From Bacilli bacterium (GTDB lineage: Bacteria > Bacillota_I > Bacilli_A > RF39 > UBA660), in assembly GCA_017522615.1 (NCBI GenBank), contig JAFWYR010000019.1, forward strand, positions 21,903-85,902: a stretch of 64,000 nucleotides of DNA. The letters are read 5' to 3'. Numbering within the stretch: position 1 is the stretch's first letter; every line of letters starts with the position of its first letter. Under the pieces are notes generated by a model, which was given only the letters and a program-made list of their open reading frames with translations, was not told the DNA's origin and did not search any database. A program made the translations under genes and the position numbers. Below are positions 27,238 through 50,043 of this stretch, one piece after another.

Positions 27238-27289
27238 CAAAAAAGATTATAATGTGTTATTATATTTTTGTAAATGAGCTGTGAAAAGG

Positions 27290-27475
27290 AATAGTAATAG
27301 GAATTAATATCTAATAGTGAGTTAGTGGTTAGTGGAAACTAATGGTATTTACCTATGAACGCACCTTGGAGCTTATTCGCGTGTCAGCGTTATTGATGTA
27401 AAGAGCATAGTAAATTCTATGAATTAAGGTGGTACCGCGGGGTAAACTCGTCCTTAGTTTATGGGATTTTTTTAT
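27290..27475 (+). promoter_or_regulatory. T-box riboswitch leader upstream of argS
   Basis: Canonical T-box sequence 'AATTAAGGTGGTACCGCGGGG' at 27422-27442 (compare AANNNGGGTGGNACCGCG). GC-enriched structured leader, followed by a hairpin plus U-run (27467-27473) just 5' of the argS RBS. Confidence 0.7.
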
Positions 27476-27490
27476 ATAGGAGGGATTTTT

Positions 27491-29188
27491 ATGTATAATA
27501 AATTAGAAAGTATTTTAAATGAATCGTTTTCTAAATTAGGTTATGAAGTAAAAAGTAAAGTTATTAAATCAAAAGAAGAAGGGGTAGATTTTCAGTGCGA
27601 CAATCTATTTAAACTTGCTAAAAAATATCATAAAGCTCCTTTTATGATAGGTGATGAGGTTATAAATGATATTAAATCTAGAGGTGATTTTTCTTTATAT
27701 TTTGATAGTATAGAATGCGTTAAACCAGGGTTTATCAATATATGTGTTAGTGATTTGCTTATTAATAACTCTCTAAAGAATCTTATTTCAAAAGATAAGT
27801 TTGGAGTTGAAATAGAAAATAGTACTATAGTTTTGGATTATGGTGGCCCTAATGTGGCTAAACCGCTACATGTTGGTCATTTAAGAACTGCTATTATCGG
27901 ACAAGCTATAAATAATATTTTATCTTTTAAAGGAAATAAGGTTTTAAGTGATGTTCATTTGGGAGATATAGGTACACAAATGGGTCAGGTTATATATGGA
28001 ATACTTGAGGATTATCCTGGTGTAGATTTTAATGATATAGATATTACTTTAGATTATTTAAATGAAACATATCCTAAAATTAGTGGACTTAGTAAAGAAA
28101 ATGAAGAAGTTAGGAATAGATGTCTAGAGATAACTAAAGAACTTCAAAGGCAGCTTCAAGAAGGCACGGGAGAATACTTTACTTTATGGAAAAAAATATA
28201 TGATGTTTCTGTAAAGGATATTAAAAGATTATATGATTTTTTAGATGTTCATTTTGACTGTTGGTATGGTGAAAGTGATGCGTTTAAATACTATGGTGAG
28301 ATGTTTGATTATTTTAAAGATAAAAATGTTTTTAGAGAAGACGATGGCGCTTTAGTTATAGATGTTAAAGAAGAAGAAGATAAAATAGAAATGCCACCAT
28401 GCATAATTAGGAAAAGTGATGGAGCTTATTTATATGCGACTTCTGATTTAGGAACTATTTGGCAAAGAAAAAAAGATTTTGATCCAGATGATATAATTTA
28501 TGTGGTAGATGCAAGACAAAGTTTACATTTTACGCAAATATTTAGAGCAGTTAAAAAATGTGGATTTTATGATGGTGGGTTAGAATTTTGTGGTTACGGA
28601 ACGGTTAATGGAACGGATAATAAGCCTTTTAAAACGAGAAGTGGTGGCTCATTTAAATTAGATGATTTGATAAACGAGGTTAAAGAAGAATTTATTTCAC
28701 TTAGAGAAGAAAATAAACAAATGAGTGAAGAAGATTTATCTAAGATTGTAAATTCAATTATTAAGTTTGCTGATTTACAAAACGATTTAACGAGAAATTA
28801 TATTTTTGATATTAAGAAATTTAGTGAGGTAAATGGTAAAACAGGTCCTTATATCTTATATACTTATTTGAGAATAAGTAAATTATTAAGTGGTAATGAT
28901 GGAACTCTTTCTGATGAAATATATAATGATATAGATAGGAGTTTACGTTTAAAACTTTTAGAGGTTAATGATATTATTGAGTTATCAGCTTTAGAAAGAA
29001 AACCACATTATATTGCTAATTATCTATATGAACTTTCAGTTATTTCAAATAATTTTTATGAAAATAATAAGATGGCAGAAATAGATGAAAAAATTAGAAA
29101 TGATTATGATATAGTTTTAAATTTTAATAATTTAGTTATTAAAACGTTACTTAATTTACTTGGAATATCTATTCCTAGCAAGATGTAA
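27491..29188 (+). CDS. argS: Arginine--tRNA ligase
   Basis: Class I HIGH motif 'PLHVGHLRTAIIGQAI', DALR anticodon-binding C-terminal domain. ATG 27491 with 'TAGGAGGGA' SD. Confidence 0.9.
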   Translation: MYNKLESILNESFSKLGYEVKSKVIKSKEEGVDFQCDNLFKLAKKYHKAPFMIGDEVINDIKSRGDFSLYFDSIECVKPGFINICVSDLLINNSLKNLISKDKFGVEIENSTIVLDYGGPNVAKPLHVGHLRTAIIGQAINNILSFKGNKVLSDVHLGDIGTQMGQVIYGILEDYPGVDFNDIDITLDYLNETYPKISGLSKENEEVRNRCLEITKELQRQLQEGTGEYFTLWKKIYDVSVKDIKRLYDFLDVHFDCWYGESDAFKYYGEMFDYFKDKNVFREDDGALVIDVKEEEDKIEMPPCIIRKSDGAYLYATSDLGTIWQRKKDFDPDDIIYVVDARQSLHFTQIFRAVKKCGFYDGGLEFCGYGTVNGTDNKPFKTRSGGSFKLDDLINEVKEEFISLREENKQMSEEDLSKIVNSIIKFADLQNDLTRNYIFDIKKFSEVNGKTGPYILYTYLRISKLLSGNDGTLSDEIYNDIDRSLRLKLLEVNDIIELSALERKPHYIANYLYELSVISNNFYENNKMAEIDEKIRNDYDIVLNFNNLVIKTLLNLLGISIPSKM

Positions 29189-40153: not shown

Positions 40154-42199
40154 ATGAATAATTTTAGTAAGAAGGCGAAGAAATTATTTAAAAATGTTAA
40201 GGAGAAGGTTATTTATTTTTTTAAGAACAATGTTTTGTTTTTTGCGTTTGTTATATCTTCTTTATTTAACGGAACTTTACTTAGATTTTTAACAGTAAAA
40301 AATTATACTAATTTTAGTCCTATACTTGCTGATTTATCTTTTATTTTGTTAGTAGGTTCTTTAGGATATTTATTTAAACCTAAAAATAGATTTAGGTATT
40401 ATATTATTTGGTCAATTATTTTTACTTTAGTTTGTTTAATAAATTCAGTTTATTATACTAATTATGTTTCTTTTACATCTTTTTCACTCCTTGCAACTAG
40501 TCTTCAGATTTTTGGAGTAAGTGATGCACTTCAAACGATTATGGAGCTTAAAGATTTTAGTTATATTTGGGCACCTTTGATGCTTATATTTTTACATATT
40601 AAGCTAAAGAAAAATGGATATTATGATAATTTTAAAATTAATAAAAATTATAAGGTTGGAGTTTTTAAAGTAATGCTTGCAGGATTAATAAGTTTAATTA
40701 TGTTTGCTTTTACTTTAACTGGTACAGATATTAGTAGACTTTATAAGCAGTGGAATAGAGAATATGTTGTTATGAAATTTGGTATTTATGTTTATCAAGG
40801 TAATGATTTGATTGCTAGTTTAAAACCACAGATTAGTCCATTATTTGGATATGATAAGGCAGCTCGTGAATTTAGAGAGTATTATAAAGAAAATGAATCT
40901 GAACATAAAGAAAATGAGTATTCTAATATACTTAAAGATAAAAATGTAATTGTTATTCATGCTGAAAGTATTCAAAATTATTTATTGGATACTAAGATAA
41001 ACGATAAAGCAATTACACCTAATTTAAAGAGACTTGCAGATGAGGGAATGTATTTTTCTAATTTCTATGCACAGGAAAGTGTTGGAACTAGTAGTGATAC
41101 TGAATTTACATTTAGTACTTCTTTACTTCCTGCTAGTAGTGGTACTGTGTTTGTTAGTTATTATGATAGATATTATCCTTCTATTCAAAAGATTTTAAAT
41201 AATAATGATTACTTTGTATTTAGTATGCATGCGAATAAAGGAAATTATTGGAATAGGGAAGCTATGCATAAATCACTTGGATATGATACATTCTATTATT
41301 ATGATAAAGATTATAAGTTAGACGATATGGTTGGACTTGGTTTATCTGATAAATCATTCTTTAGACAGTCAGCTAAAAAGATTGGTAAGATATCTTCTAA
41401 AAATGATAATTTTTATGGACTTATGATTATGCTTACTAATCATACTCCATTTGATGGTATTACAGAAACTGATTTAGATTTAACTTATAGATACAATAAG
41501 AAAGATGAGACAACAGGAGAAGAGACAGAAGTTGTTAATGATTATTTGAAAGATACTACTTTAGGTAAATATTTTACAACCGCACATTATGCGGATGAAG
41601 CTATAGGAGAATTTGTCGAAGAACTCGATGCTGAGGGAGTTTTAGATGATACGGTTATAGTTATATATGGAGATCATGATGCGAAGATAAAAAGAGGAGA
41701 ATATGATTTTTATTATAATTATAATCCAGAGACTGATTCTAAAAGAGATAAAGAAGATCCTCTTTATAAAGAATATACAAAATATGATTATGAATTAAAT
41801 AGAAAAGTTCCATTTATTATTTGGACTAAGGATGAAGAATTAAAGTCTAAAATTAATAAGGAAATTAAAACAGTAACTGGTATGTATGATGTTTTACCAA
41901 CATTATCTAATATGCTTGGGGTAGAGAATAGTAAATATGCTTTAGGACATGATGTATTTAGTACTGATGATCATTATGTAATATTTCCTAACAGTAACTG
42001 GGTTACTGATAAAATGTATTATGATAGTCAAAACGGTGAGGCATTTACTTTAGATGCAAATGATGTTATAGATGCTGATTATATTAAAAAATATACTGAG
42101 ATGGCAGAAAAAGAAATTGCCGTGTCTAATGATATTATAGTTCATGATTTGATAAAGAAAACGGAGGAGTCTAGTAAGGTAATAAAAGGAGGCAAATAA
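40154..42199 (+). CDS. LtaS-family lipoteichoic acid synthase / sulfatase-fold phosphoglycerol transferase
   Basis: 5 N-terminal TM helices followed by an extracellular sulfatase domain ('VIVIHAESIQ', 'NFYAQESVGTSSDTEFT' nucleophile-Thr region, 'GDHD'). ATG 40154 with 'GAGGTG' SD. Confidence 0.8.
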   Translation: MNNFSKKAKKLFKNVKEKVIYFFKNNVLFFAFVISSLFNGTLLRFLTVKNYTNFSPILADLSFILLVGSLGYLFKPKNRFRYYIIWSIIFTLVCLINSVYYTNYVSFTSFSLLATSLQIFGVSDALQTIMELKDFSYIWAPLMLIFLHIKLKKNGYYDNFKINKNYKVGVFKVMLAGLISLIMFAFTLTGTDISRLYKQWNREYVVMKFGIYVYQGNDLIASLKPQISPLFGYDKAAREFREYYKENESEHKENEYSNILKDKNVIVIHAESIQNYLLDTKINDKAITPNLKRLADEGMYFSNFYAQESVGTSSDTEFTFSTSLLPASSGTVFVSYYDRYYPSIQKILNNNDYFVFSMHANKGNYWNREAMHKSLGYDTFYYYDKDYKLDDMVGLGLSDKSFFRQSAKKIGKISSKNDNFYGLMIMLTNHTPFDGITETDLDLTYRYNKKDETTGEETEVVNDYLKDTTLGKYFTTAHYADEAIGEFVEELDAEGVLDDTVIVIYGDHDAKIKRGEYDFYYNYNPETDSKRDKEDPLYKEYTKYDYELNRKVPFIIWTKDEELKSKINKEIKTVTGMYDVLPTLSNMLGVENSKYALGHDVFSTDDHYVIFPNSNWVTDKMYYDSQNGEAFTLDANDVIDADYIKKYTEMAEKEIAVSNDIIVHDLIKKTEESSKVIKGGK

Positions 42200-42834
42200 T
42201 GGCTAGGAGAAGAAGAAAAGTTAAGTTTAGCAGAGTGTTTATTTTACTCCTTTTGATTGCTTTAATATTTGTTTTTGGCTATATGGCTATTAAGAAATTT
42301 AGTAGTAAGAAAGTTAGTAAGGTTAAAGAGATATCTTCTATTAAAGGATATGGTTATACTTTGAGAGCAGATGCGACAGATTATTACAAAAGTTTATTTA
42401 AAAAATTAGATAAAGTATTAAAAGAAAAAGATGTAGATATGGATGAGTATGCTTCTTTGGTTAGCCAAATGTTCGTAGCTGATTTCTTTAATTTAGATAA
42501 TAAAATAAGTAAGAATGATGTTGGCGGCAAGCAGTTTGTTTATACTGATTATCAAGGTGATTTTGAAAAATATGCGAAAGATTCTATTTATAAATCTGTT
42601 CAAAATAATGTATATGGAAATAGAAAACAAGAGTTACCAATAGTTAGTAAAGTTACAGTTTCTAAAAAAGATAGTGAATCATTTAAATATGGGGATAATA
42701 CTGATAGTGAAGCTTATGTATTTGAATTTGAGGTCCAATATAAAAAGAACTTAGATTATCAAGAAAGCGGTAAATTGGTTTTGATTCACAATGATAAAAA
42801 AATAGAAGTTGCTTCGATGAGTGATAATAATTAG
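42199..42834 (+). CDS. Membrane-anchored protein, unknown function
   Basis: N-terminal 'RRRRKVK' followed by TM 'VFILLLLIALIFVFGYMAI'. Translationally coupled to ltaS (TAATG). Confidence 0.4.
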   Translation: MARRRRKVKFSRVFILLLLIALIFVFGYMAIKKFSSKKVSKVKEISSIKGYGYTLRADATDYYKSLFKKLDKVLKEKDVDMDEYASLVSQMFVADFFNLDNKISKNDVGGKQFVYTDYQGDFEKYAKDSIYKSVQNNVYGNRKQELPIVSKVTVSKKDSESFKYGDNTDSEAYVFEFEVQYKKNLDYQESGKLVLIHNDKKIEVASMSDNN

Positions 42835-42921: not shown

Positions 42922-43398
42922 ATGAAAAAGTCAGTTGTTTTAATTTGGGTTTTGGTTTCAATTTTATTTATAATGAGTAGTAGTTTTACCATATATGGTT
43001 TGTATTTAAATTTTAGAGAACCAGCAAAACCAGAACTATTAGTTCAGAGTGTTTCTGTTTCTGATACAGAAAATGGTGGTGGTAGTATTGGGAATCCAAT
43101 ATATTCTAATTCTTCTATTACATTTTCATCTTCATTACTAAATCCTGGTAGTAGTGTCACTTATAAGGTAACTTTTAGTAATGATAGTAATAAAGATATT
43201 ATTTTAACTGATTTTGAAAAGTCTACTCCGGAAAGTTCTGATATTAATTTTGAATTAGTAGGAGTGACTAAAGGAAATATTATCTCTAAAAATAGTACTT
43301 TTGATATGTTAGTTAAAATATCTTATGATAGTGAATCAAAAGGAAATACTAAGATTAATACTAATTTAACTGTTAAAGTAGATTACGAGGAAAAGTAA
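42922..43398 (+). CDS. Divergent TasA-like small secreted protein (paralog 5)
   Basis: Signal/TM 'VVLIWVLVSILFIMSSS'. Core 'LNPGSSVTYKVTFSNDSNKDIIL' parallels the '(Q/A/S)PGDxVxYxVT(V/I)xN(S/A)GTL(N/D)AK' motif of the three TasA-like paralogs. Confidence 0.5.
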   Translation: MKKSVVLIWVLVSILFIMSSSFTIYGLYLNFREPAKPELLVQSVSVSDTENGGGSIGNPIYSNSSITFSSSLLNPGSSVTYKVTFSNDSNKDIILTDFEKSTPESSDINFELVGVTKGNIISKNSTFDMLVKISYDSESKGNTKINTNLTVKVDYEEK

Positions 43399-44027: not shown

Positions 44028-44549
44028 ATGCGTATTATAAGTGGTAAATATAGAGGTAAAAAATTAAAAGGATTTGATATAGAAGGTACAAGACCTACTA
44101 TGGATAGGGTTAAAGAGTCACTATTTGGTATGATACAAGGTTATATTCCTTCTTCGGTTGTTTTAGATTTGTTTGCTGGAAGTGGTTCACTTGGATTAGA
44201 GGCAATTAGTAATGGAGCGAGTAAGGCTATATTATGTGATAATAATAAAAAAGTAATAGATATACTTAAAGATAATATTAAATCGTTTGATGATGATATT
44301 GAATTATTATGTGTAGATTATAAAAAATTTTTAAAAGAAACTGAATATAAATTTGATGTTATATTTTTGGATCCTCCTTATAGAGCTGGAGTTATGAATA
44401 AAGCTTTGAGAATTATCGAGGAGAGAGAATTATTAAATGATGGCGGAATTGTCGTTTGTGAATATGAAAATATAAGAATTGAAACTAATTTGGAAAAGAT
44501 TAAAGAAAAAAATTATGGACCAAAAACAATAAGTGTTTTTAGAAAATAA
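44028..44549 (+). CDS. rsmD: 16S rRNA (guanine966-N2)-methyltransferase
   Basis: 'MRIISGKYRGKKL', 'DLFAGSGSLGLEA', and 'DPPY' catalytic motif. Confidence 0.85.
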   Translation: MRIISGKYRGKKLKGFDIEGTRPTMDRVKESLFGMIQGYIPSSVVLDLFAGSGSLGLEAISNGASKAILCDNNKKVIDILKDNIKSFDDDIELLCVDYKKFLKETEYKFDVIFLDPPYRAGVMNKALRIIEERELLNDGGIVVCEYENIRIETNLEKIKEKNYGPKTISVFRK

Positions 44550-44617
44550 TTTTTTTTATTATTTAAAAGTAAATGTGAATATTTTATAGAATAATTATTT
44601 ATGAGGGGGTGATAACG

Positions 44618-46612
44618 ATGAAGAAGTATCCTTTTGTAAAGCAAACTGGATTAAAAGATTGTGGTCCAGCATGTAGTTTGATGATTATAAAATACTATGG
44701 CGGTTATGTAAGTTTAGATAAACTATGTGAAATTATGAAAACAAATAAGAGTGGAACTACTGCTTACCATATAATTAAGGCATTTAGATTATTTGGATTT
44801 GAATGTGATGGCTTTAAATATGACGATATTTCTTTAGTTAGTTTTCCAAGTATTATGCATATAAAAACTAACTCCTACACCCATTATGTTGTAATATGGA
44901 AAATAGACTATAAAAGAAATTATGTTATTGTTGGAGATCCATTTAAAGGAAATATTAACATGAAAATATCAGATTTTATTTCTATATGGACAGGTTATAC
45001 TATTTCTATGAATCCTATTAAAAAGATAGTTAAAGAAGAAAAACCTAAAGTATTTAGTTTTTTATATAATTTAATTAAACCAAATGTTAAATATTTAATT
45101 ATTACAAGTATTCTTTCTTTATTTACTGTGTTTTTTTCTATAATTCTTTCTTTCTTTGTTCAAATAATCATTTCTAATATGAATAGTAATTATTTGTTTT
45201 TGATTTTGGTTTTCTTTATCTTTTTAATGATTTTAAATGCGGTTTTTAATTATTTTCGAAATTTATTTATGGTAAGATTTGGTAATAAGCTCGATAAATT
45301 GTTATCATATAATACTTTTTCATCTATTATTAGACTCCCTTATGAAGCGTGCCTAAGTAAAACGACTGGAGAGACAATGAGCTTTTATAATGATTTATTT
45401 TTGATCAAAAGTTTTGCATTAAAAATAGCGGTTACATTTTTAATTGATATTCCAATTATTTTATTTGTTTCTTTGTATTTCTTTAAGAATTCATTTTATC
45501 TTTTTTTAATTAATATTGGTTTTTTAATATTATATTTATGTTATTTTTTATATAATAAGAAGAAAGTACTATTTTTGTCTAGCGAAGTACTTAATTCAAA
45601 ATCTATAGTAAATTCTTTTATTACGGAATGTGTTTCCGGGTTTGAAAGTATTAGAAATTTAAATATTCAATCTAAAATGAATGAAAGATTTAAAAGGAAT
45701 TATGACAATTATTATGATATAAATGATCGTTATGAATATTTTAGAATAAAAAAATTATTTTTTAAAGATTTATTTTCTAATTTATATTTTATTTTGATAG
45801 TAGCTATTTGTTTGAATAATTCTTTTAAATTATTTTTTACAATTTATTATCTTTCATCTTTATTTATTTCCTCTTTAGAAAATCTTTTTAATTATGATTT
45901 TGAATTTAGTGAGGTTATATCTTCTATTAGTCATATAGAGTATTTGTCTTTAAAAAAATTAAACAAGGAGGAGAATAATTTTTTTGGAGATATTAGTATT
46001 AGTAATTTAATGTATAGTTATGATGGTATAAAAAATGTTTTAAACAATATTAATTTAAAGATAAAAAAAGGAGAAAAGATATTAGTTAGTGGTGAAAGCG
46101 GTAGTGGTAAAAGTACACTATTTAGAATTATTAAAGGATTTTATGATGACTATAATGGTAAGGTTACGATAGGAAAATACGATTTAAAAAAATATGATTT
46201 TAATAATATTTTATATGTTTCTTCTGAAGAGACATTATTTACTGGAAGGATAATCGATAATTTAAATATTAGAAATTTAGATTTTGATAGAGATATGTGT
46301 GAAATAGATGATTTTGCTATTGATAATAATGTTATTTTAGAAAATGGATTTAATTTATCTAGTGGTCAAAGACAGCGGATAGGACTTACTAGAGTAGGTA
46401 AATTTGATATTTTGATAATTGATGAAGGATTGTCTTGCGTAGATATTAGTATGGAAAGACGTATTTTAAAGAGACTTTTTAAAAAGAATTTAGATAAAAC
46501 TATTATTTTTATTTCTCATAGGCTCGATAATTTAGATCTTTTTGAAAGATTTATTAAACTCTCTTCTGGTAAAATAATAGTCGATGAGGTACGCAATTAT
46601 GAAAGGATGTGA
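44618..46612 (+). CDS. Peptidase-C39-containing ABC transporter (PCAT; double-glycine leader peptide exporter)
   Basis: N-terminal C39 domain with catalytic Cys in 'KDCGPACSLMI' and His in 'HYVVI'. 6-TM domain. NBD has Walker A 'GESGSGKST', signature 'LSSGQRQRIGL', Walker B 'ILIIDE', and H-loop 'ISHRL'. Confidence 0.85.
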   Translation: MKKYPFVKQTGLKDCGPACSLMIIKYYGGYVSLDKLCEIMKTNKSGTTAYHIIKAFRLFGFECDGFKYDDISLVSFPSIMHIKTNSYTHYVVIWKIDYKRNYVIVGDPFKGNINMKISDFISIWTGYTISMNPIKKIVKEEKPKVFSFLYNLIKPNVKYLIITSILSLFTVFFSIILSFFVQIIISNMNSNYLFLILVFFIFLMILNAVFNYFRNLFMVRFGNKLDKLLSYNTFSSIIRLPYEACLSKTTGETMSFYNDLFLIKSFALKIAVTFLIDIPIILFVSLYFFKNSFYLFLINIGFLILYLCYFLYNKKKVLFLSSEVLNSKSIVNSFITECVSGFESIRNLNIQSKMNERFKRNYDNYYDINDRYEYFRIKKLFFKDLFSNLYFILIVAICLNNSFKLFFTIYYLSSLFISSLENLFNYDFEFSEVISSISHIEYLSLKKLNKEENNFFGDISISNLMYSYDGIKNVLNNINLKIKKGEKILVSGESGSGKSTLFRIIKGFYDDYNGKVTIGKYDLKKYDFNNILYVSSEETLFTGRIIDNLNIRNLDFDRDMCEIDDFAIDNNVILENGFNLSSGQRQRIGLTRVGKFDILIIDEGLSCVDISMERRILKRLFKKNLDKTIIFISHRLDNLDLFERFIKLSSGKIIVDEVRNYERM

Positions 46613-46752
46613 TTTTTATTATTTTAAGTAAAGAAGAGCTAATTAAAGTAAATGGTGGTGGACCAAATTTTACTCTGATTGGTGGTATAGGAGCTGCGAT
46701 TGCATTTTTAATTAGTTTAGTTGATGGTTTTTTAAACCCTGGTAAGTGCTGA
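46609..46752 (+). CDS. Double-glycine-leader peptide A (bacteriocin/pheromone-like), not in the ORF track
   Basis: Reading frame '(M)IFIILSKEELIKVNGG|GPNFTLIGGIGAAIAFLISLVDGFLNPGKC*'. Leader fits LSxxELxxIxGG. The start codon is uncertain: GTG at 46609 overlaps the ABC stop, and in-frame ATT at 46612/46618 is the alternative. The previous in-frame stop is at 46600. Confidence 0.6.
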   Translation: MIFIILSKEELIKVNGGGPNFTLIGGIGAAIAFLISLVDGFLNPGKC

Positions 46753-46913
46753 TGAAGTTATCTAATGAAGAGTTAATTAATATTAGTGGTGGAGCGGTTA
46801 CATCGACATTTATAAATGCAGCAGTTAAAGGAATAACTTTATTGATAGAACTAGGTAAGAGCTTAGGTTCGACTATTAGAAGAATATCTGAAAAGAAAAG
46901 TTGTTCTATATAA
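46752..46913 (+). CDS. Double-glycine-leader peptide B (bacteriocin/pheromone-like), not in the ORF track
   Basis: ATG overlaps the stop of peptide A (TGATG). 'MKLSNEELINISGG|AVTSTFINAAVKGITLLIELGKSLGSTIRRISEKKSCSI*'. Leader fits LSxxELxxIxGG; the mature part has a GxxxG motif. Followed by a strong terminator. Confidence 0.7.
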   Translation: MKLSNEELINISGGAVTSTFINAAVKGITLLIELGKSLGSTIRRISEKKSCSI

Positions 46914-46918
46914 TTATT

Positions 46919-46947
46919 AAAAGTGAGATTTTCTCACTTTTTTTTTA
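46919..46947 (+). terminator. Intrinsic terminator after the peptide genes
   Basis: 'AAGTGAGA ttt TCTCACTT' followed by T8. Confidence 0.7.
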
Positions 46948-47021
46948 GTTTTTTTAATTTTTTCTTTAAAAACAAAAGGAAACGTGTTATAATATGGATA
47001 GCCGAGAAGGGAGGGATTTTT

Positions 47022-47303
47022 ATGACAAAAGTAATGGTTAGAAACGGAAATGTCGATGGTGCACTTAGAACTTTAAAAGTCGATAAAGATGGCTCCCGCA
47101 GAAAAATTAGAGAAAATATGGAAGGCTATTTAAAACCTGGAGTTAGAAGAAGAAGAAAAAAAGAAGAAGGCATCAGAAATACTAAGAGAAGAAATAGAAG
47201 AGAAAATAGAAGTTATAGTAGTTTTAGTAGTAATCATTATACTAGACCTGTTAGTAGAGTTAACAGAGAAAAAAAAGAAGAAACTTCTGAAAATAATGAA
47301 TAA
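47022..47303 (+). CDS. rpsU: 30S ribosomal protein S21 with Arg/Lys-rich C-terminal extension
   Basis: 'MTKVMVRNGNVDGALRTLK...KPGVRRRRKK' is S21. ATG 47022 with 'GAAGGGAGGGA' SD and extended -10 'TGTTATAAT' at 46986-46994. The ORF-track start 46923 runs through the terminator and promoter. Confidence 0.8.
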   Translation: MTKVMVRNGNVDGALRTLKVDKDGSRRKIRENMEGYLKPGVRRRRKKEEGIRNTKRRNRRENRSYSSFSSNHYTRPVSRVNREKKEETSENNE

Positions 47304-47844: not shown

Positions 47845-48804
47845 ATGGCTAAAAAAAAGGAAAAAGATATTAAGAAAAGCGAAGAGGTAATCGATAAAGC
47901 TATAGAAGAAAAGGTAGAAGTAATATCTGAGAATGTTAGTAAACCTATGATAGATGTTCAGTCTATTAAAAATGATTTAACTGACTACATGAGAATGAGA
48001 ATTGATAAGGAAGTTTCTGAAGCAGTTGAGAGAGCTAATAAAAAAATTATTCATCATAAAAATTCTATTATTATTAAAAGGGATATTTTAATTGTTGTTT
48101 TATTGGTTATATGTTTCTTTTTAGGATATAATTTATATAATGTATCTAATATAAATATCGATATTACTAGAGCTAAAAAGAATGAAAGTACGAAGATTAA
48201 AAAAACTTCTGTAAAAGAAGAATCTAAAGATTCTGAAGAAGTAAAAGAAAAAAGCTTAGAAGAGAAGAAAAGTGAATACGGTTCATTAATAGATGATATT
48301 ATTATTGATGAAGAAAGTGATTATATTGATAATTTTTACGATGGAGATTTAACAGATGAAATAAAACTTTATCTTGCCCTTAATCGTTTGGATGATGTAA
48401 CGAATGAAGATGATACTATATATATAGACGATGATAAATTAAAGGAAAGTTATGAAGAATTATTCGATAGTGAATTTAGTCCTAAAAGTTTTAAGTATGG
48501 AAGTTTTAGTTTCCGTCATTTGACTGCAAAATCAATGTTTATAGCGGATGGTGAATTTAAAAAAGTTAAATCTAATATAAAGAAAGAAATAACTGAAATT
48601 AATGAAGAAGATGATAAAGTTATAATAAATACAGTTGAGGGAATTGTTAAAGATAATAAACTTTATGATATAAAAGGCAGAGAAATTAAAAAATATAACG
48701 GTGGTAAAATGGATGAGTTTGAAAGCTCTTTAAATAAAATTAAATATGAATTTATAAAGATAGATGATAAATATAAGCTTTCAAAGATAGAAAAAGGTAA
48801 TTAA
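47845..48804 (+). CDS. Bitopic acidic membrane protein, unknown function
   Basis: 319 aa with a single TM 'ILIVVLLVICFFLGYNLY' near residue 85; Glu/Asp/Lys-rich. Confidence 0.4.
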   Translation: MAKKKEKDIKKSEEVIDKAIEEKVEVISENVSKPMIDVQSIKNDLTDYMRMRIDKEVSEAVERANKKIIHHKNSIIIKRDILIVVLLVICFFLGYNLYNVSNINIDITRAKKNESTKIKKTSVKEESKDSEEVKEKSLEEKKSEYGSLIDDIIIDEESDYIDNFYDGDLTDEIKLYLALNRLDDVTNEDDTIYIDDDKLKESYEELFDSEFSPKSFKYGSFSFRHLTAKSMFIADGEFKKVKSNIKKEITEINEEDDKVIINTVEGIVKDNKLYDIKGREIKKYNGGKMDEFESSLNKIKYEFIKIDDKYKLSKIEKGN

Positions 48805-48978: not shown

Positions 48979-50043
48979 ATGGCAGTAGTATCAATGAATT
49001 TACTACTAGAGGCTGGTGTTCATTTTGGACATCAGACTAAAAGATGGAATCCTAAAATGAAGGAGTACATCTTTACAGCTAGAGATGAGATCTATATTAT
49101 CGATTTACAAAAAACAGCTAAAAAGTTAGAAGAAGCTTATAATGCTTTAAAAGAGATTGTGGCAAATGGAGGAAAAGTTTTATTTGTCGGAACTAGAAAA
49201 CAAGCTAGTGAAGCAGTTAAGGATGAAGCTCTTAGAAGTGGTTCATTCTATGTTAATGAAAGATGGCTTGGAGGAACACTTACAAACTTTAAGACAATCA
49301 GAAGAAGAGTTAGAAGACTTGAACAAATAGAAAAGATGGAAAAAGATGGTATTTTTGAATTACTTCCTAAGAAAGAAGTTATTCATATTAAGAAAGAATA
49401 TAATAAATTAAATAAACTATTATGTGGTATTAGAGATATGTACAAATTACCACAAGCTATGTTTATCGTAGATCCATCTAAAGAAGAAATTGCAATTAGA
49501 GAAGCTAGAAAATTAAATATTCCAGTATTTGGTATTGTAGATACAAACTGTGATCCAGATATGGTTGATTATGTAATTCCTGGTAACGATGATGCAATTA
49601 GAGCAGTTAAATTAGTTACTGGTGTAATTAATAATGCTATTGTCGAAGCTAACGGCGGAAAATTAGTCGATTATGTAAGTGATAACAGAAAAGAAGAAGG
49701 CGAAGATATAATGAAGAAAGCCTTGGAAACTGTTAAGAGAAAAGAAGATAGAAGACCTAGATTCGACCGTAAATCTGATAGAAAATTTTATAATAGATCA
49801 TCTGAAAAAGTAGAAAGAAAAACTACTAGAAAAGAAGCTTTTAAACCTAAAACTGAGGAAAAAGCTCCTGAGAAAAAAGCTGAAGTTAAAGAAGTAAAAG
49901 AAGTTAAAGCTAAAAAAGAAAAAGCCACTGTAGATTTATCTACTAAAACTGTAGCTGAACTTCGTGAAATGGCTAAAGCTAAAGAAATTAAAGGTATTTC
50001 TACTATGAAAAAAGCTGAATTAATCGAAGCTTTAAGTAAGTAA
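48979..50043 (+). CDS. rpsB: 30S ribosomal protein S2 with ~100-aa basic C-terminal extension ending in a Rho_N/SAP-like motif
   Basis: '[27 protein letters not shown]' is the canonical S2 start. ATG 48979 with 'AAAGGAGGA' SD. C-terminus '[35 protein letters not shown]'. Confidence 0.9.

What the first reader, a model, noticed from the sequence alone, without database searches (positions are those of the whole stretch)
44618..46947. C39-peptidase ABC exporter followed by two unannotated double-glycine-leader peptides
Immediately after the PCAT stop codon lie two tandem, overlapping small ORFs (about 47 and 53 codons) that the six-frame track missed. Their N-termini match the LSxxELxxIxGG double-glycine leader consensus ('LSKEELIKVNGG', 'LSNEELINISGG'). 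The predicted mature parts are 30 and 39 aa: one is a Gly/Ala-rich amphipathic helix, the other carries GxxxG. This is the signature of a class IIb two-peptide bacteriocin, or a peptide pheromone pair, with its dedicated exporter. Two things are unusual. No immunity gene, HlyD-like accessory gene or cognate two-component system is adjacent. The locus is wedged between housekeeping genes (rsmD and rpsU), with a strong terminator separating it from rpsU.
Basis: partly seen in the sequence, partly recalled or inferred. Interest (0 to 1): 0.75.

Follow-up and report, generated by a model that had tools for sequence, protein, structure and literature searches.

The report
Conserved exporter with two leader peptides
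An uncultured gut bacterium carries a peptide-cleaving export pump followed by two small bacteriocin-like peptide genes, and this three-gene unit appears to have been inherited vertically across a whole bacterial order without any visible immunity gene.

Summary
A 664-aa C39-peptidase ABC exporter (PCAT, 44618-46612) has its catalytic Gln/Cys/His/Asp intact. It is followed by two overlapping small genes: pepA (46609-46752) and pepB (46752-46913). Both carry canonical double-glycine leaders. A terminator follows, and the unit lies between rsmD and rpsU.

Both small genes are real. The PCAT-pepA-pepB trio recurs in at least 120 species-level genomes of uncultured gut Bacilli, covering at least two families of GTDB order RF39. 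PepB relatives form 458 clusters at 50% identity. PCAT divergence tracks that of RpsU and YqeY (rho 0.88-0.89). The unit was not found on plasmids, phages or viral contigs.

PepA matures to a 30-aa hydrophobic helix and pepB to a 39-aa cationic amphipathic helix with an almost invariant GxxxG motif. Each keeps one nearly invariant Cys near its C-terminus. The window holds no immunity gene, accessory gene or sensor system near the cassette.

The class IIb bacteriocin-like reading is the best fit but has not been tested by experiment. The core-genome behaviour and the missing immunity gene are atypical. The genes are already called as "hypothetical protein" in public records, so they are not unannotated. 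I rate this a new variant of a known kind, of moderate interest.

The parts
44563..44592 (+). Promoter-like site (TTAAAA-18-TAGAAT) in the rsmD-PCAT spacer
   Evidence: Consensus scan. A -10-like TAGAAT/TATAT element and the downstream Shine-Dalgarno (SD) sequence align across six relatives. The match to consensus is shown; promoter function is inferred.
44603..44613 (+). Strong Shine-Dalgarno sequence (GAGGGGGTGAT) 4 nt before the PCAT ATG
   Evidence: Read directly from the sequence. GAGGAGGTGAT is conserved in relatives.
44618..46612 (+). PCAT: peptidase-containing ABC exporter, 664 aa
   Evidence: Pfam C39, ABC_membrane and ABC_tran domains. Full-length alignment to PCAT1 4RY2 (1.5e-64) and ComA 8HF7. 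NCBIfam TIGR01193 scores 255.5 bits, below its 523.85 cut-off.
44624..45016 (+). C39 cysteine-peptidase domain (aa 3-133) with Gln9, Cys15, His89 and Asp107
   Evidence: The four residues align to those of PCAT1. They are conserved in 21 of 22 homologues; the remaining one is N-terminally truncated.
45098..45811 (+). ABC exporter transmembrane domain (aa 161-398)
   Evidence: Pfam ABC_membrane, 4.8e-15.
46040..46426 (+). Nucleotide-binding domain (Pfam ABC_tran match, aa 475-603). Walker A (GESGSGKST) and Walker B (ILIIDE) are intact, as is the H-loop (SHR) at aa 631-636 just beyond the Pfam match. The Q-loop Gln is replaced by Ser, and the signature motif is LSSGQ.
46609..46752 (+). pepA precursor, 47 codons from GTG. 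An alternative start is ATT at 46618. Leader 46609-46659 ends in GG. Mature peptide 46660-46749 is 30 aa: GPNFTLIGGIGAAIAFLISLVDGFLNPGKC.
   Evidence: 77 homologous clusters. Paired with pepB in 113 of 121 loci. AF2 pLDDT 82, with helices at 8-15 and 19-42. NCBIfam TIGR03949 scores 20.8 bits against a 21.5 cut-off.
46752..46913 (+). pepB precursor, 53 codons. Leader 46752-46793 (MKLSNEELINISGG). Mature peptide 46794-46910 is 39 aa, net charge +4, with GxxxG = GKSLG and a single Cys 2 residues from the C-terminus.
   Evidence: 95 clusters. 458 representatives at 50% identity. AF2 pLDDT 78, helix 5-46. Hydrophobic moment 0.46, exceeded by 0.1% of shuffles.
46919..46951 (+). Intrinsic-terminator-like hairpin (10 bp stem, 3-nt loop) plus T-run, ending the cassette
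   Evidence: A comparable hairpin with T-run lies within 110 nt of the pepB stop in 59 of 120 loci, against 0 in a control region inside PCAT.
44028..44549 (+). Upstream flank: rsmD (16S rRNA methyltransferase family)
   Evidence: Pfam Cons_hypoth95, 4.8e-53. Syntenic in the nearer relatives.
46965..47303 (+). Downstream flank: rpsU (S21, 47022-47303) with its own extended -10 promoter-like site (46965-46993)
   Evidence: rpsU lies on the same strand directly downstream of pepB in 72 loci.

Best explanation
The locus is a three-gene, self-contained transcription unit. It makes two unmodified precursor peptides and the pump that matures them.

Proposed mechanism. Each precursor has a 14-17-aa double-glycine leader, which forms a short helix with Leu-12, Glu-8, Leu-7 and Ile/Val-4. 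The leader docks in the C39 domain of the PCAT dimer. Cys15 and His89 cut after Gly-Gly. The ABC core then exports the mature peptides.

Outside the cell, the hydrophobic 30-aa pepA helix and the cationic amphipathic 39-aa pepB helix act together on a membrane, in the manner of class IIb two-peptide bacteriocins. They would pack through their small-xxx-small/GxxxG motifs. They may also be tied together by a disulfide between the single conserved C-terminal Cys of each.

Shown here: gene reality, pairing, conservation, leader consensus, intact peptidase residues, predicted helicity and amphipathicity, and vertical inheritance.

Inferred, not shown: cleavage, export, joint membrane activity, the disulfide, and the target. 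The target could be competitors, kin or host cells, or the producer's own membrane.
For: PCAT architecture and catalytic residues are intact.

The leader consensus over about 110-120 loci is Gly-1 100%, Gly/Ala-2, Ile/Val-4, Leu-7 83%, Glu-8 84% and Leu-12. From established knowledge, this is the recognition pattern of C39 domains.

pepA and pepB are adjacent and translationally overlapped or closely spaced. They were recovered as a pair in 113 of 121 loci.

Codon-position conservation follows pos3 < pos1 < pos2 in the leaders and mature parts of both genes.

pepB has G21xxxG25 at 92% each. pepA has [G/S]xxDG at 78%.

AF2 predicts helices. pepB is strongly amphipathic with net charge +4. pepA is hydrophobic with GRAVY 1.07.

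35 of 50 pepA relatives match the class IIb family TIGR03949, best 2.2e-9, and 25 of 50 match the lactococcin G-beta family.

Exactly one Cys is present in 110 of 113 mature pepA and 115 of 121 mature pepB sequences, always within 0-5 residues of the C-terminus.
Against: No immunity gene lies in or beside the operon, and no LcnD/ComB/HlyD-type accessory gene is present.

The cassette co-diverges with housekeeping genes. It is absent from plasmids, phages and viral contigs. That pattern is unusual for a competitive weapon.

The window's PCAT subclade has lost the Q-loop Gln and has a degenerate signature motif.

The window's pepA falls 0.7 bits short of the TIGR03949 cut-off, and pepB belongs to no described family.

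The organisms are gut anaerobes, so extracellular disulfide formation is uncertain.

No expression or activity data exist.
Confidence: 0.55

Rival explanations
1. The pair has a physiological role directed at the producer. After export and cleavage, the peptides re-insert into the producer's own membrane or envelope and serve a housekeeping or regulatory function, for example as a small membrane complex or channel. That would explain why every lineage keeps them and why no immunity gene is needed.
For: The trio is retained in at least 120 species-level genomes. PCAT divergence tracks RpsU and YqeY (rho 0.88-0.89). It sits in a housekeeping neighbourhood, usually directly upstream of rpsU (72 loci). 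No immunity gene is present. The cassette is not mobile. C39 ABC transporters are retained in mycoplasmas, and even in the minimal cell JCVI-syn3A, with no known GG substrate. This suggests a non-bacteriocin role is conceivable (PMC6609329).
Against: I know of no precedent for a GG-leader peptide pair with a housekeeping role. About 30 of the 120 loci sit in other genomic contexts. The peptide features are those of membrane-active toxins.
Confidence: 0.2
2. The peptides are pheromones of the ComC/BlpC type. They would be exported and cleaved by the PCAT and sensed by a histidine kinase encoded elsewhere.
For: GG leaders and a dedicated PCAT are shared with quorum-sensing peptides. A few members give weak hits to ComC, EntF-induction-factor and VP1 pheromone models, which are leader-driven.
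Against: No histidine kinase or response regulator lies next to the cassette in the window or in any relative inspected. The mature parts are 30-40 aa, one is a transmembrane-length hydrophobic helix, and their cores are conserved across an order. From knowledge, pheromones are shorter and diversify quickly. Two peptides are always paired.
Confidence: 0.08
3. The small ORFs are chance reading frames or decaying remnants, and the PCAT is an orphan exporter.
For: pepA has no ATG start in the window. The window's PCAT has a degenerate Q-loop and signature motif.
Against: There are hundreds of homologues with conserved length, GG site, core motifs and Cys. The codon-position pattern is that of coding sequence. 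The same non-ATG layout, with a proper SD, recurs in sister lineages. Only two such ORFs exist in 64 kb, and they sit exactly after the PCAT.
Confidence: 0.02

Closest known systems
Class IIb two-peptide bacteriocins (lactococcin G, plantaricin EF/JK; NCBIfam TIGR03949 lactobin A/cerein 7B family)
   Same: Two different GG-leader peptides are encoded by adjacent genes, alongside a dedicated C39 ABC exporter. The peptides are helical, with mature lengths of 30-40 aa. GxxxG-type motifs are present. One partner is hydrophobic and one cationic. pepA relatives match TIGR03949 (35 of 50).
   Different: No immunity gene in the operon and no accessory protein in the window. pepB belongs to no described family. 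Each peptide has a single, nearly invariant C-terminal Cys. The cassette is vertically inherited across an order and usually lies next to rpsU, rather than being patchy, strain-variable or plasmid-borne. Activity is untested.
PCAT1 of Clostridium thermocellum (PDB 4RY2) and ComA of Streptococcus (PDB 8HF7)
   Same: Full-length collinear alignment (E 1.5e-64 and 7.7e-64). Same C39-TMD-NBD order. Catalytic Gln/Cys/His/Asp conserved. The substrate gene is adjacent.
   Different: About 65 residues shorter. In the window's subclade the Q-loop Gln is replaced by Ser, Pro, Ala or Leu, and the signature is LSSGQ/ISDGQ. There is no ComB-type partner. It scores below the TIGR01193 trusted cut-off.
CibAB two-peptide fratricide bacteriocin of Streptococcus pneumoniae (comparison from my own knowledge, not tested here)
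   Same: A GG-leader peptide pair that is part of the species' conserved genome rather than a variable accessory locus. It is exported by a PCAT and used to lyse neighbouring cells.
   Different: CibAB has a linked immunity gene (cibC). It is under competence control and uses the ComAB exporter encoded elsewhere. No sequence similarity was established.
Mycoplasma Mbov_0121-family C39 ABC transporter (NF045998) and MAG1140-family protein (NF045999)
   Same: RF39 PCATs score 199-331 bits on NF045998 over its full length. The extra 130-152-aa single-TM ORF found after the PCAT in 22 of 107 related loci hits NF045999 in 10 of 19 cases. Mycoplasma PCATs have no known GG substrate (PMC6609329).
   Different: All scores are below the curated cut-offs of 500 and 35 bits. 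The window itself lacks the MAG1140-like ORF. That the two Mycoplasma genes are adjacent is my inference from their consecutive accession numbers, not a checked fact.

Membership tests
PCAT / AMS (peptidase-containing ABC transporter) | N-terminal C39 papain-like domain with catalytic Cys and His (plus Gln oxyanion residue and Asp) | tested here: met
   Pfam PF03412, 107.8 bits against a cut-off of 22. Gln9, Cys15, His89 and Asp107 align to PCAT1 and are conserved in homologues.
PCAT / AMS (peptidase-containing ABC transporter) | Type-I ABC exporter transmembrane domain followed by a nucleotide-binding domain on one chain | tested here: met
   PF00664 and PF00005 both score above their cut-offs. 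Collinear alignment to 4RY2 covers residues 2-654.
PCAT / AMS (peptidase-containing ABC transporter) | Complete set of ATPase motifs (Walker A, Q-loop Gln, LSGGQ signature, Walker B, H-loop) | tested here: inconclusive
   Walker A, Walker B (DE) and the H-loop are present. The Q-loop Gln is Ser and the signature is LSSGQ in the window and its subclade; both are canonical in more distant relatives.
PCAT / AMS (peptidase-containing ABC transporter) | Score above the trusted cut-off of NCBIfam TIGR01193 (peptide cleavage/export ABC transporter) | tested here: not met
   255.5 bits against a cut-off of 523.85. It is the best-scoring model, with full-length coverage.
PCAT / AMS (peptidase-containing ABC transporter) | Cognate double-glycine-leader substrate encoded nearby | tested here: met
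   pepA and pepB follow directly. Their leader consensus matches LSxxELxxIxGG.
PCAT / AMS (peptidase-containing ABC transporter) | Demonstrated leader cleavage coupled to export | not testable with these tools
   Needs biochemistry or mass spectrometry.
Class IIb two-peptide bacteriocin | Two different peptides encoded by adjacent genes in one operon | tested here: met
   pepA and pepB overlap by 1 nt in the window. They were recovered as a pair in 113 of 121 loci, with spacing of -19 to +20 nt in nearly all.
Class IIb two-peptide bacteriocin | Double-glycine leaders and unmodified mature peptides of 25-60 aa | tested here: met
   Leaders of 12-17 aa ending in GG or AG. Median mature lengths are 31 and 40 aa. 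No modification enzyme lies adjacent. Absence of modification is inferred.
Class IIb two-peptide bacteriocin | GxxxG (small-xxx-small) helix-packing motifs in both peptides | tested here: met
   pepB has G21xxxG25, 92% each. pepA has G19xxxG23 at 78%, which is S-L-V-D-G in the window, plus GGIGAAIA.
Class IIb two-peptide bacteriocin | Immunity gene in the same operon | tested here: not met
   No ORF lies between rsmD and PCAT or between pepB and the terminator. The flanking genes are RsmD, YlbD/E, S21 and YqeY. The extra single-TM ORF seen in 22 of 107 relatives is absent, and no homologue exists in the window.
Class IIb two-peptide bacteriocin | Antimicrobial activity that needs both peptides | not testable with these tools
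   Needs synthetic peptides and indicator strains.
Class IIb two-peptide bacteriocin | Membership of a curated class IIb HMM family (TIGR03949 or NF038034/NF038035) | tested here: inconclusive
   Window pepA scores 20.8 bits on TIGR03949 (cut-off 21.5) and 25.7 on NF038034 (cut-off 37). 35 of 50 relatives hit TIGR03949 at E<=0.01, best 2.2e-9. pepB shows leader-only hits in 8 of 50.
GG-leader peptide pheromone system (ComC/BlpC type) | Cognate histidine kinase and response regulator linked to the peptide and exporter genes | tested here: not met
   None within +/-5 kb in the window or in six relatives with Pfam-annotated neighbours.
GG-leader peptide pheromone system (ComC/BlpC type) | Short, rapidly diversifying mature peptide | tested here: not met
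   Mature peptides are 30-40 aa with cores conserved across at least 120 species.
Mycoplasma Mbov_0121 / MAG1140 gene pair | PCAT above the NF045998 cut-off, followed by a MAG1140-family protein | tested here: not met
   The window PCAT scores 198.9 bits against a cut-off of 500. No MAG1140-like ORF is present in the window.

The most novel reading that the evidence does not exclude
The PCAT-pepA-pepB trio is a core, vertically inherited function of the reduced-genome gut order RF39, not an accessory weapon. The two peptides would form a disulfide-linked heterodimer through their invariant C-terminal cysteines. The pair would serve an obligatory role, for example lysing neighbours to release nutrients for an auxotrophic lifestyle, or acting on the producer's own membrane. 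The RF39 loci that also carry a MAG1140-like gene would be the substrate-bearing counterpart of the orphan C39 ABC transporters kept by mycoplasmas, including JCVI-syn3A gene 0401. That would point to where the missing substrates of those transporters should be sought.
Probability: 0.15. Interest if true: 0.75.

Novelty: new variant of a known kind. Interest (0 to 1): 0.5.

Why it matters
RF39 bacteria are common, uncultured gut inhabitants of humans and livestock, with small genomes. A secreted, membrane-active peptide pair that almost all of them keep would be one of the few conserved effectors known for the group.

If the pair is antimicrobial, it is a new two-peptide bacteriocin family from an untapped lineage.

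If it is not, it would be a first case of a double-glycine peptide system with a core physiological role. It might also help explain why mycoplasmas, including the minimal cell, retain a C39 exporter with no known substrate.

The paired invariant cysteines give a directly testable structural prediction: a heterodimer with mass A+B-2 Da.

Tried and rejected
**Genetic code 4 (TGA = Trp).** Rejected. pepA homologues stop at the same place with TAA or TAG, and 6 of 59 long window ORFs end in TGA.

**The search for related loci with peptide alignments A3 and A1.** Both runs failed because no sufficiently conserved stretch was available. I replaced them with a hand-built degenerate DNA pattern, validated on 15 known loci.

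**Pairwise NG86 dN/dS.** Synonymous sites are saturated across these AT-rich genomes, giving a median dS of 0.8-1.3 and ratios of about 0.5. I judged this uninformative and used codon-position conservation instead.

**Searches for mobile copies.** tblastn of pepA and pepB against plasmids, and of pepB against phages, gave no match. The pepB pattern gave 0 hits in viral contigs.

**Literature.** Peptide motifs gave 0 papers. RFN20 or RF39 with bacteriocin gave nothing relevant. Two-peptide bacteriocin with intermolecular disulfide gave nothing relevant. MAG1140 and Mbov_0121 gave no functional data.

**The extra single-TM ORF of relatives.**
- No Pfam family.
- The PDB profile search gave only weak IsdA NEAT-domain hits (E 0.005-0.015), which I regard as non-significant.
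- No homologue in the window.

**Cluster look-up for taxonomy of distant pepB relatives.** It returned no organism names.

**A-versus-B profile comparison.** The similarity is confined to the leaders, so the two peptides are not recent duplicates of one another.

**AF2 on the natural A-B fusion.** Considered and not run. A 4-residue linker would force an antiparallel hairpin, so the model could not test the parallel, Cys-linked arrangement.
Full report
**What is in the window**

The window has 27% G+C. It matches a metagenome-assembled "Bacilli bacterium" from a gut data set (ENA scaffold, 92 kb).

At 44618-46612 on the + strand lies a 664-aa ORF with Pfam Peptidase_C39 (4.9e-31), ABC_membrane and ABC_tran domains. 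It aligns over its full length to the solved peptidase-containing ABC transporters PCAT1 (4RY2, 1.5e-64) and ComA (8HF7).

Two small ORFs follow it directly:
- pepA, 46609-46752. Its GTG start overlaps the PCAT stop as GTGA.
- pepB, 46752-46913. Its ATG shares one base with the pepA TGA.

Their N-termini read LSKEELIKVNGG and LSNEELINISGG.

A hairpin with a T-run lies at 46919-46941. The flanks are RsmD upstream and S21 then YqeY downstream. rpsU has its own extended -10 promoter-like site.

A regex scan of all six frames of the 64 kb found no other double-glycine-leader ORF.

**Are the small ORFs genes?**

Yes. Exact-sequence look-ups of PCAT homologues only 40-56% identical to the window's all returned the same layout. 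That layout is LtaS, unknown genes, ylbD, ylbE, rsmD, PCAT, a 43-47-aa ORF, a 52-54-aa ORF, rpsU, yqeY.

Profile searches found 95 clusters of pepB and 77 of pepA, clustered at 90% identity. An exhaustive HMM search of 1.84 billion representatives found 458 pepB relatives at E<=1e-3. Of 146 short representatives, 143 have a Cys in the last eight residues.

I built a degenerate DNA pattern for the pepB core.

In those loci the PCAT lies on the same strand upstream in 106 of 114 cases. The rest are cut by contig ends. pepA and pepB were recovered as a pair in 113 of 121 loci.

Third codon positions are the least conserved and second positions the most, in both leaders and both mature regions. 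TGA is a genuine stop here.

Public gene callers already list both ORFs. NCBI calls them hypothetical proteins, and one JGI record calls a pepA relative a "lactobin A/cerein 7B family class IIb bacteriocin".

**Which organisms carry it**

The hits include Candidatus Coprosoma intestinipullorum and Clostridium sp. CAG:594. A published taxonomy places these in GTDB order RF39, in families CAG-822 and CAG-433 respectively (PMC8035907). The cassette therefore spans at least two families of RF39, a group of uncultured gut Bacilli that was formerly filed under Mollicutes.

Identity of each locus's PCAT to the window's PCAT correlates with the identity of its RpsU (rho 0.88) and YqeY (rho 0.89). This indicates co-divergence with the genome rather than horizontal spread.

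rpsU lies directly downstream, at a median of about 200 nt, in 72 loci. About 30 loci with enough flanking sequence sit in other contexts, next to trpS, MarR with ABC genes, pnp or polC. rsmD is upstream only in the nearer relatives.

No related peptide was found on plasmids or phages.

**Anatomy of the parts**

*The exporter.* The C39 residues Gln9, Cys15, His89 and Asp107 are conserved in the window and in 21 of 22 homologues; the exception is N-terminally truncated. Walker A, Walker B and the H-loop are intact. In the window's subclade, however, the Q-loop glutamine is replaced by Ser, Pro, Ala or Leu, and the signature reads LSSGQ or ISDGQ. I cannot explain this.

*The leaders.* Over about 110-120 loci, both peptides show Gly-1 100%, Gly/Ala-2, Ile/Val-4, Leu-7 83%, Glu-8 84% and Leu-12. 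This is the classical pattern recognised by C39 domains (established knowledge).

*Mature pepA.* It is a hydrophobic, Gly/Ala-rich segment with GRAVY 1.07 and net charge 0 in the window. AF2 predicts a 24-residue helix with pLDDT above 90 in its core. It ends in a conserved D-G-[FY]-x-[NR]-P-x-x-C motif.

*Mature pepB.* It has net charge +4 and is predicted as one long helix. Its hydrophobic moment is 0.46, exceeded by 0.1% of shuffles. Its G-[KR]-x-x-G motif is nearly invariant, with each Gly at 92%. It continues with I-R-R and a single Cys two to three residues from the end.

*The cysteines.* Exactly one Cys is present in 110 of 113 mature pepA and 115 of 121 mature pepB sequences.

**Mechanism**

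The best-supported reading is that the PCAT cuts both precursors after Gly-Gly and exports them. The hydrophobic and the cationic amphipathic helices then act together on a membrane, as class IIb two-peptide bacteriocins do.

The paired, invariant C-terminal cysteines suggest an intermolecular disulfide that would hold the two helices parallel. This is inference only. I found no precedent in the literature I searched.

Shown here are the genes, their pairing, conservation, leader consensus, peptidase residues, predicted helices and vertical inheritance. Cleavage, export, joint activity, the disulfide and the target are all inferred.

**Comparison with known systems**

pepA is a borderline member of NCBIfam TIGR03949, the class IIb lactobin A/cerein 7B family. 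The window's copy scores 20.8 bits against a cut-off of 21.5. Of its relatives, 35 of 50 hit the model, best 2.2e-9. In addition, 25 of 50 hit the lactococcin G-beta family.

pepB matches known models only through its leader. Its similarity to pepA is likewise confined to the leader. Its mature part therefore appears to be an undescribed family.

Against class IIb membership, the immunity gene typical of such operons is absent. The window also has no LcnD/ComB-type accessory gene.

In 22 of 107 related loci an extra 130-152-aa single-pass membrane ORF sits between the PCAT and pepA. It has no Pfam family. Ten of 19 copies hit the Mycoplasma "MAG1140 family" model NF045999, best 2.6e-4. That model's accession number follows the Mycoplasma PCAT model NF045998, on which RF39 PCATs score 199-331 bits, below the cut-off of 500. 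The window lacks this ORF and has no homologue of it.

A modelling paper on the minimal cell JCVI-syn3A notes that its C39 ABC transporter (gene 0401), like those of other mycoplasmas, has no identified double-glycine substrate (PMC6609329). A relationship between those orphan transporters and this substrate-bearing RF39 cassette is a lead I could not test.

**Rival readings**

- *Physiological role directed at the producer.* This would explain the core-genome behaviour and the missing immunity gene, but it has no precedent. I give it about 0.2.
- *Pheromone pair.* This is unlikely. No sensor is linked, the mature peptides are long and conserved, and they are always paired.
- *Spurious or decaying ORFs.* This is excluded by the conservation data.

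**The pepA start codon**

Relatives begin M-[KIL]-L-[SNTD]. The window has ATT ATT TTA AGT at that position, 10 nt after a GAAAGGA Shine-Dalgarno sequence. It also has a GTG 1 nt after the same Shine-Dalgarno sequence, overlapping the PCAT stop.

Two sister lineages (L136/L137 and L138) show the same arrangement, with ATA or ATT at the canonical position. Initiation is therefore either at GTG, by termination-reinitiation coupling, or at AUU/AUA. This is unresolved, but the frame and the mature peptide are intact.

**Verdict**

The finding is real and correctly described in outline. It is best filed as a new variant of the PCAT plus two-peptide bacteriocin theme.

Four features set it apart: inheritance across an order, frequent anchoring upstream of rpsU, one invariant cysteine in each peptide, and no immunity gene. 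I found no paper describing it.

Interest is moderate, at 0.5. It would rise if the core-function reading or the Mollicutes link proved true.

Noticed in passing
window 46040-46530 (PCAT NBD); also L017, L027, L038, L040, L042, L078, L082, L111: In the window's subclade the Q-loop glutamine of the ABC ATPase is replaced by Ser, Pro, Ala or Leu, and the signature motif reads LSSGQ or ISDGQ. Walker A, Walker B and the H-loop stay intact. More distant relatives keep the canonical motifs. The peptides remain conserved, so the pump presumably still works, perhaps with altered ATPase coupling.
   Followed up: partly
window 46600-46630; L136 285-310; L138 1495-1530: pepA lacks an ATG at the canonical Met position in the window and two sister lineages. 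A GTG lies 0-1 nt after the Shine-Dalgarno sequence, overlapping the PCAT stop in two of the three. An ATT or ATA lies 8-10 nt after it. This could be a conserved non-canonical (AUU/AUA) or coupled GTG start.
   Followed up: partly
L019 1784-2224; oriented loci L021, L025, L031, L033, L039, L047-L049, L051, L059, L064, L094, L102, L114, L119, L121, L125, L131: 22 of 107 related loci carry an extra 130-152-aa single-TM ORF between the PCAT and pepA. It has no Pfam family. Ten of 19 copies hit NCBIfam NF045999 'MAG1140 family protein' (Mycoplasma), whose accession follows the Mycoplasma PCAT model NF045998. It could be an accessory or immunity component and a possible link to the orphan PCATs of mycoplasmas. 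It is absent from the window.
   Followed up: partly
P0195 (83 aa), P0302 (101 aa); L020 oriented 2506-2680: Two single-contig natural fusions or read-throughs of pepA and pepB exist. One locus (L020) has a third, degenerate pepB-like GG peptide without the conserved Cys. These may be assembly errors or evolutionary intermediates.
   Followed up: no
window 27272-27458 (+): A T-box leader (Rfam RF00230, 133 bits) lies immediately upstream of the 575-aa ORF at 27461-29188. This is presumably an aminoacyl-tRNA synthetase or an amino-acid-related gene.
   Followed up: no
window 47022-47303: Ribosomal protein S21 is 93 aa in the window, against 62-78 aa in most relatives. It has a Ser/Asn/Arg/Glu-rich C-terminal extension.
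   Followed up: no
window 48979-50043; L001 10362-11426: Ribosomal protein S2 carries a C-terminal extension with a precomputed Pfam Rho_N (PF07498) hit, in the window and in several relatives.
   Followed up: no
L002 and L003 (Logan contigs SRR31077522, SRR31077497; 3.2 kb): Independent short assemblies begin in ylbE/rsmD and end about 115 nt after pepB, close to the terminator. If the libraries are RNA, this would be evidence for a transcript covering rsmD, PCAT, pepA and pepB. The library type is unknown.
   Followed up: no
window 42199-42834, 42922-43398, 47845-48804: Three conserved syntenic ORFs of 211, 158 and 319 aa have no Pfam family. All have N-terminal hydrophobic segments. None recurs next to the cassette in distant relatives, so they are unlikely to belong to it.
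   Followed up: partly
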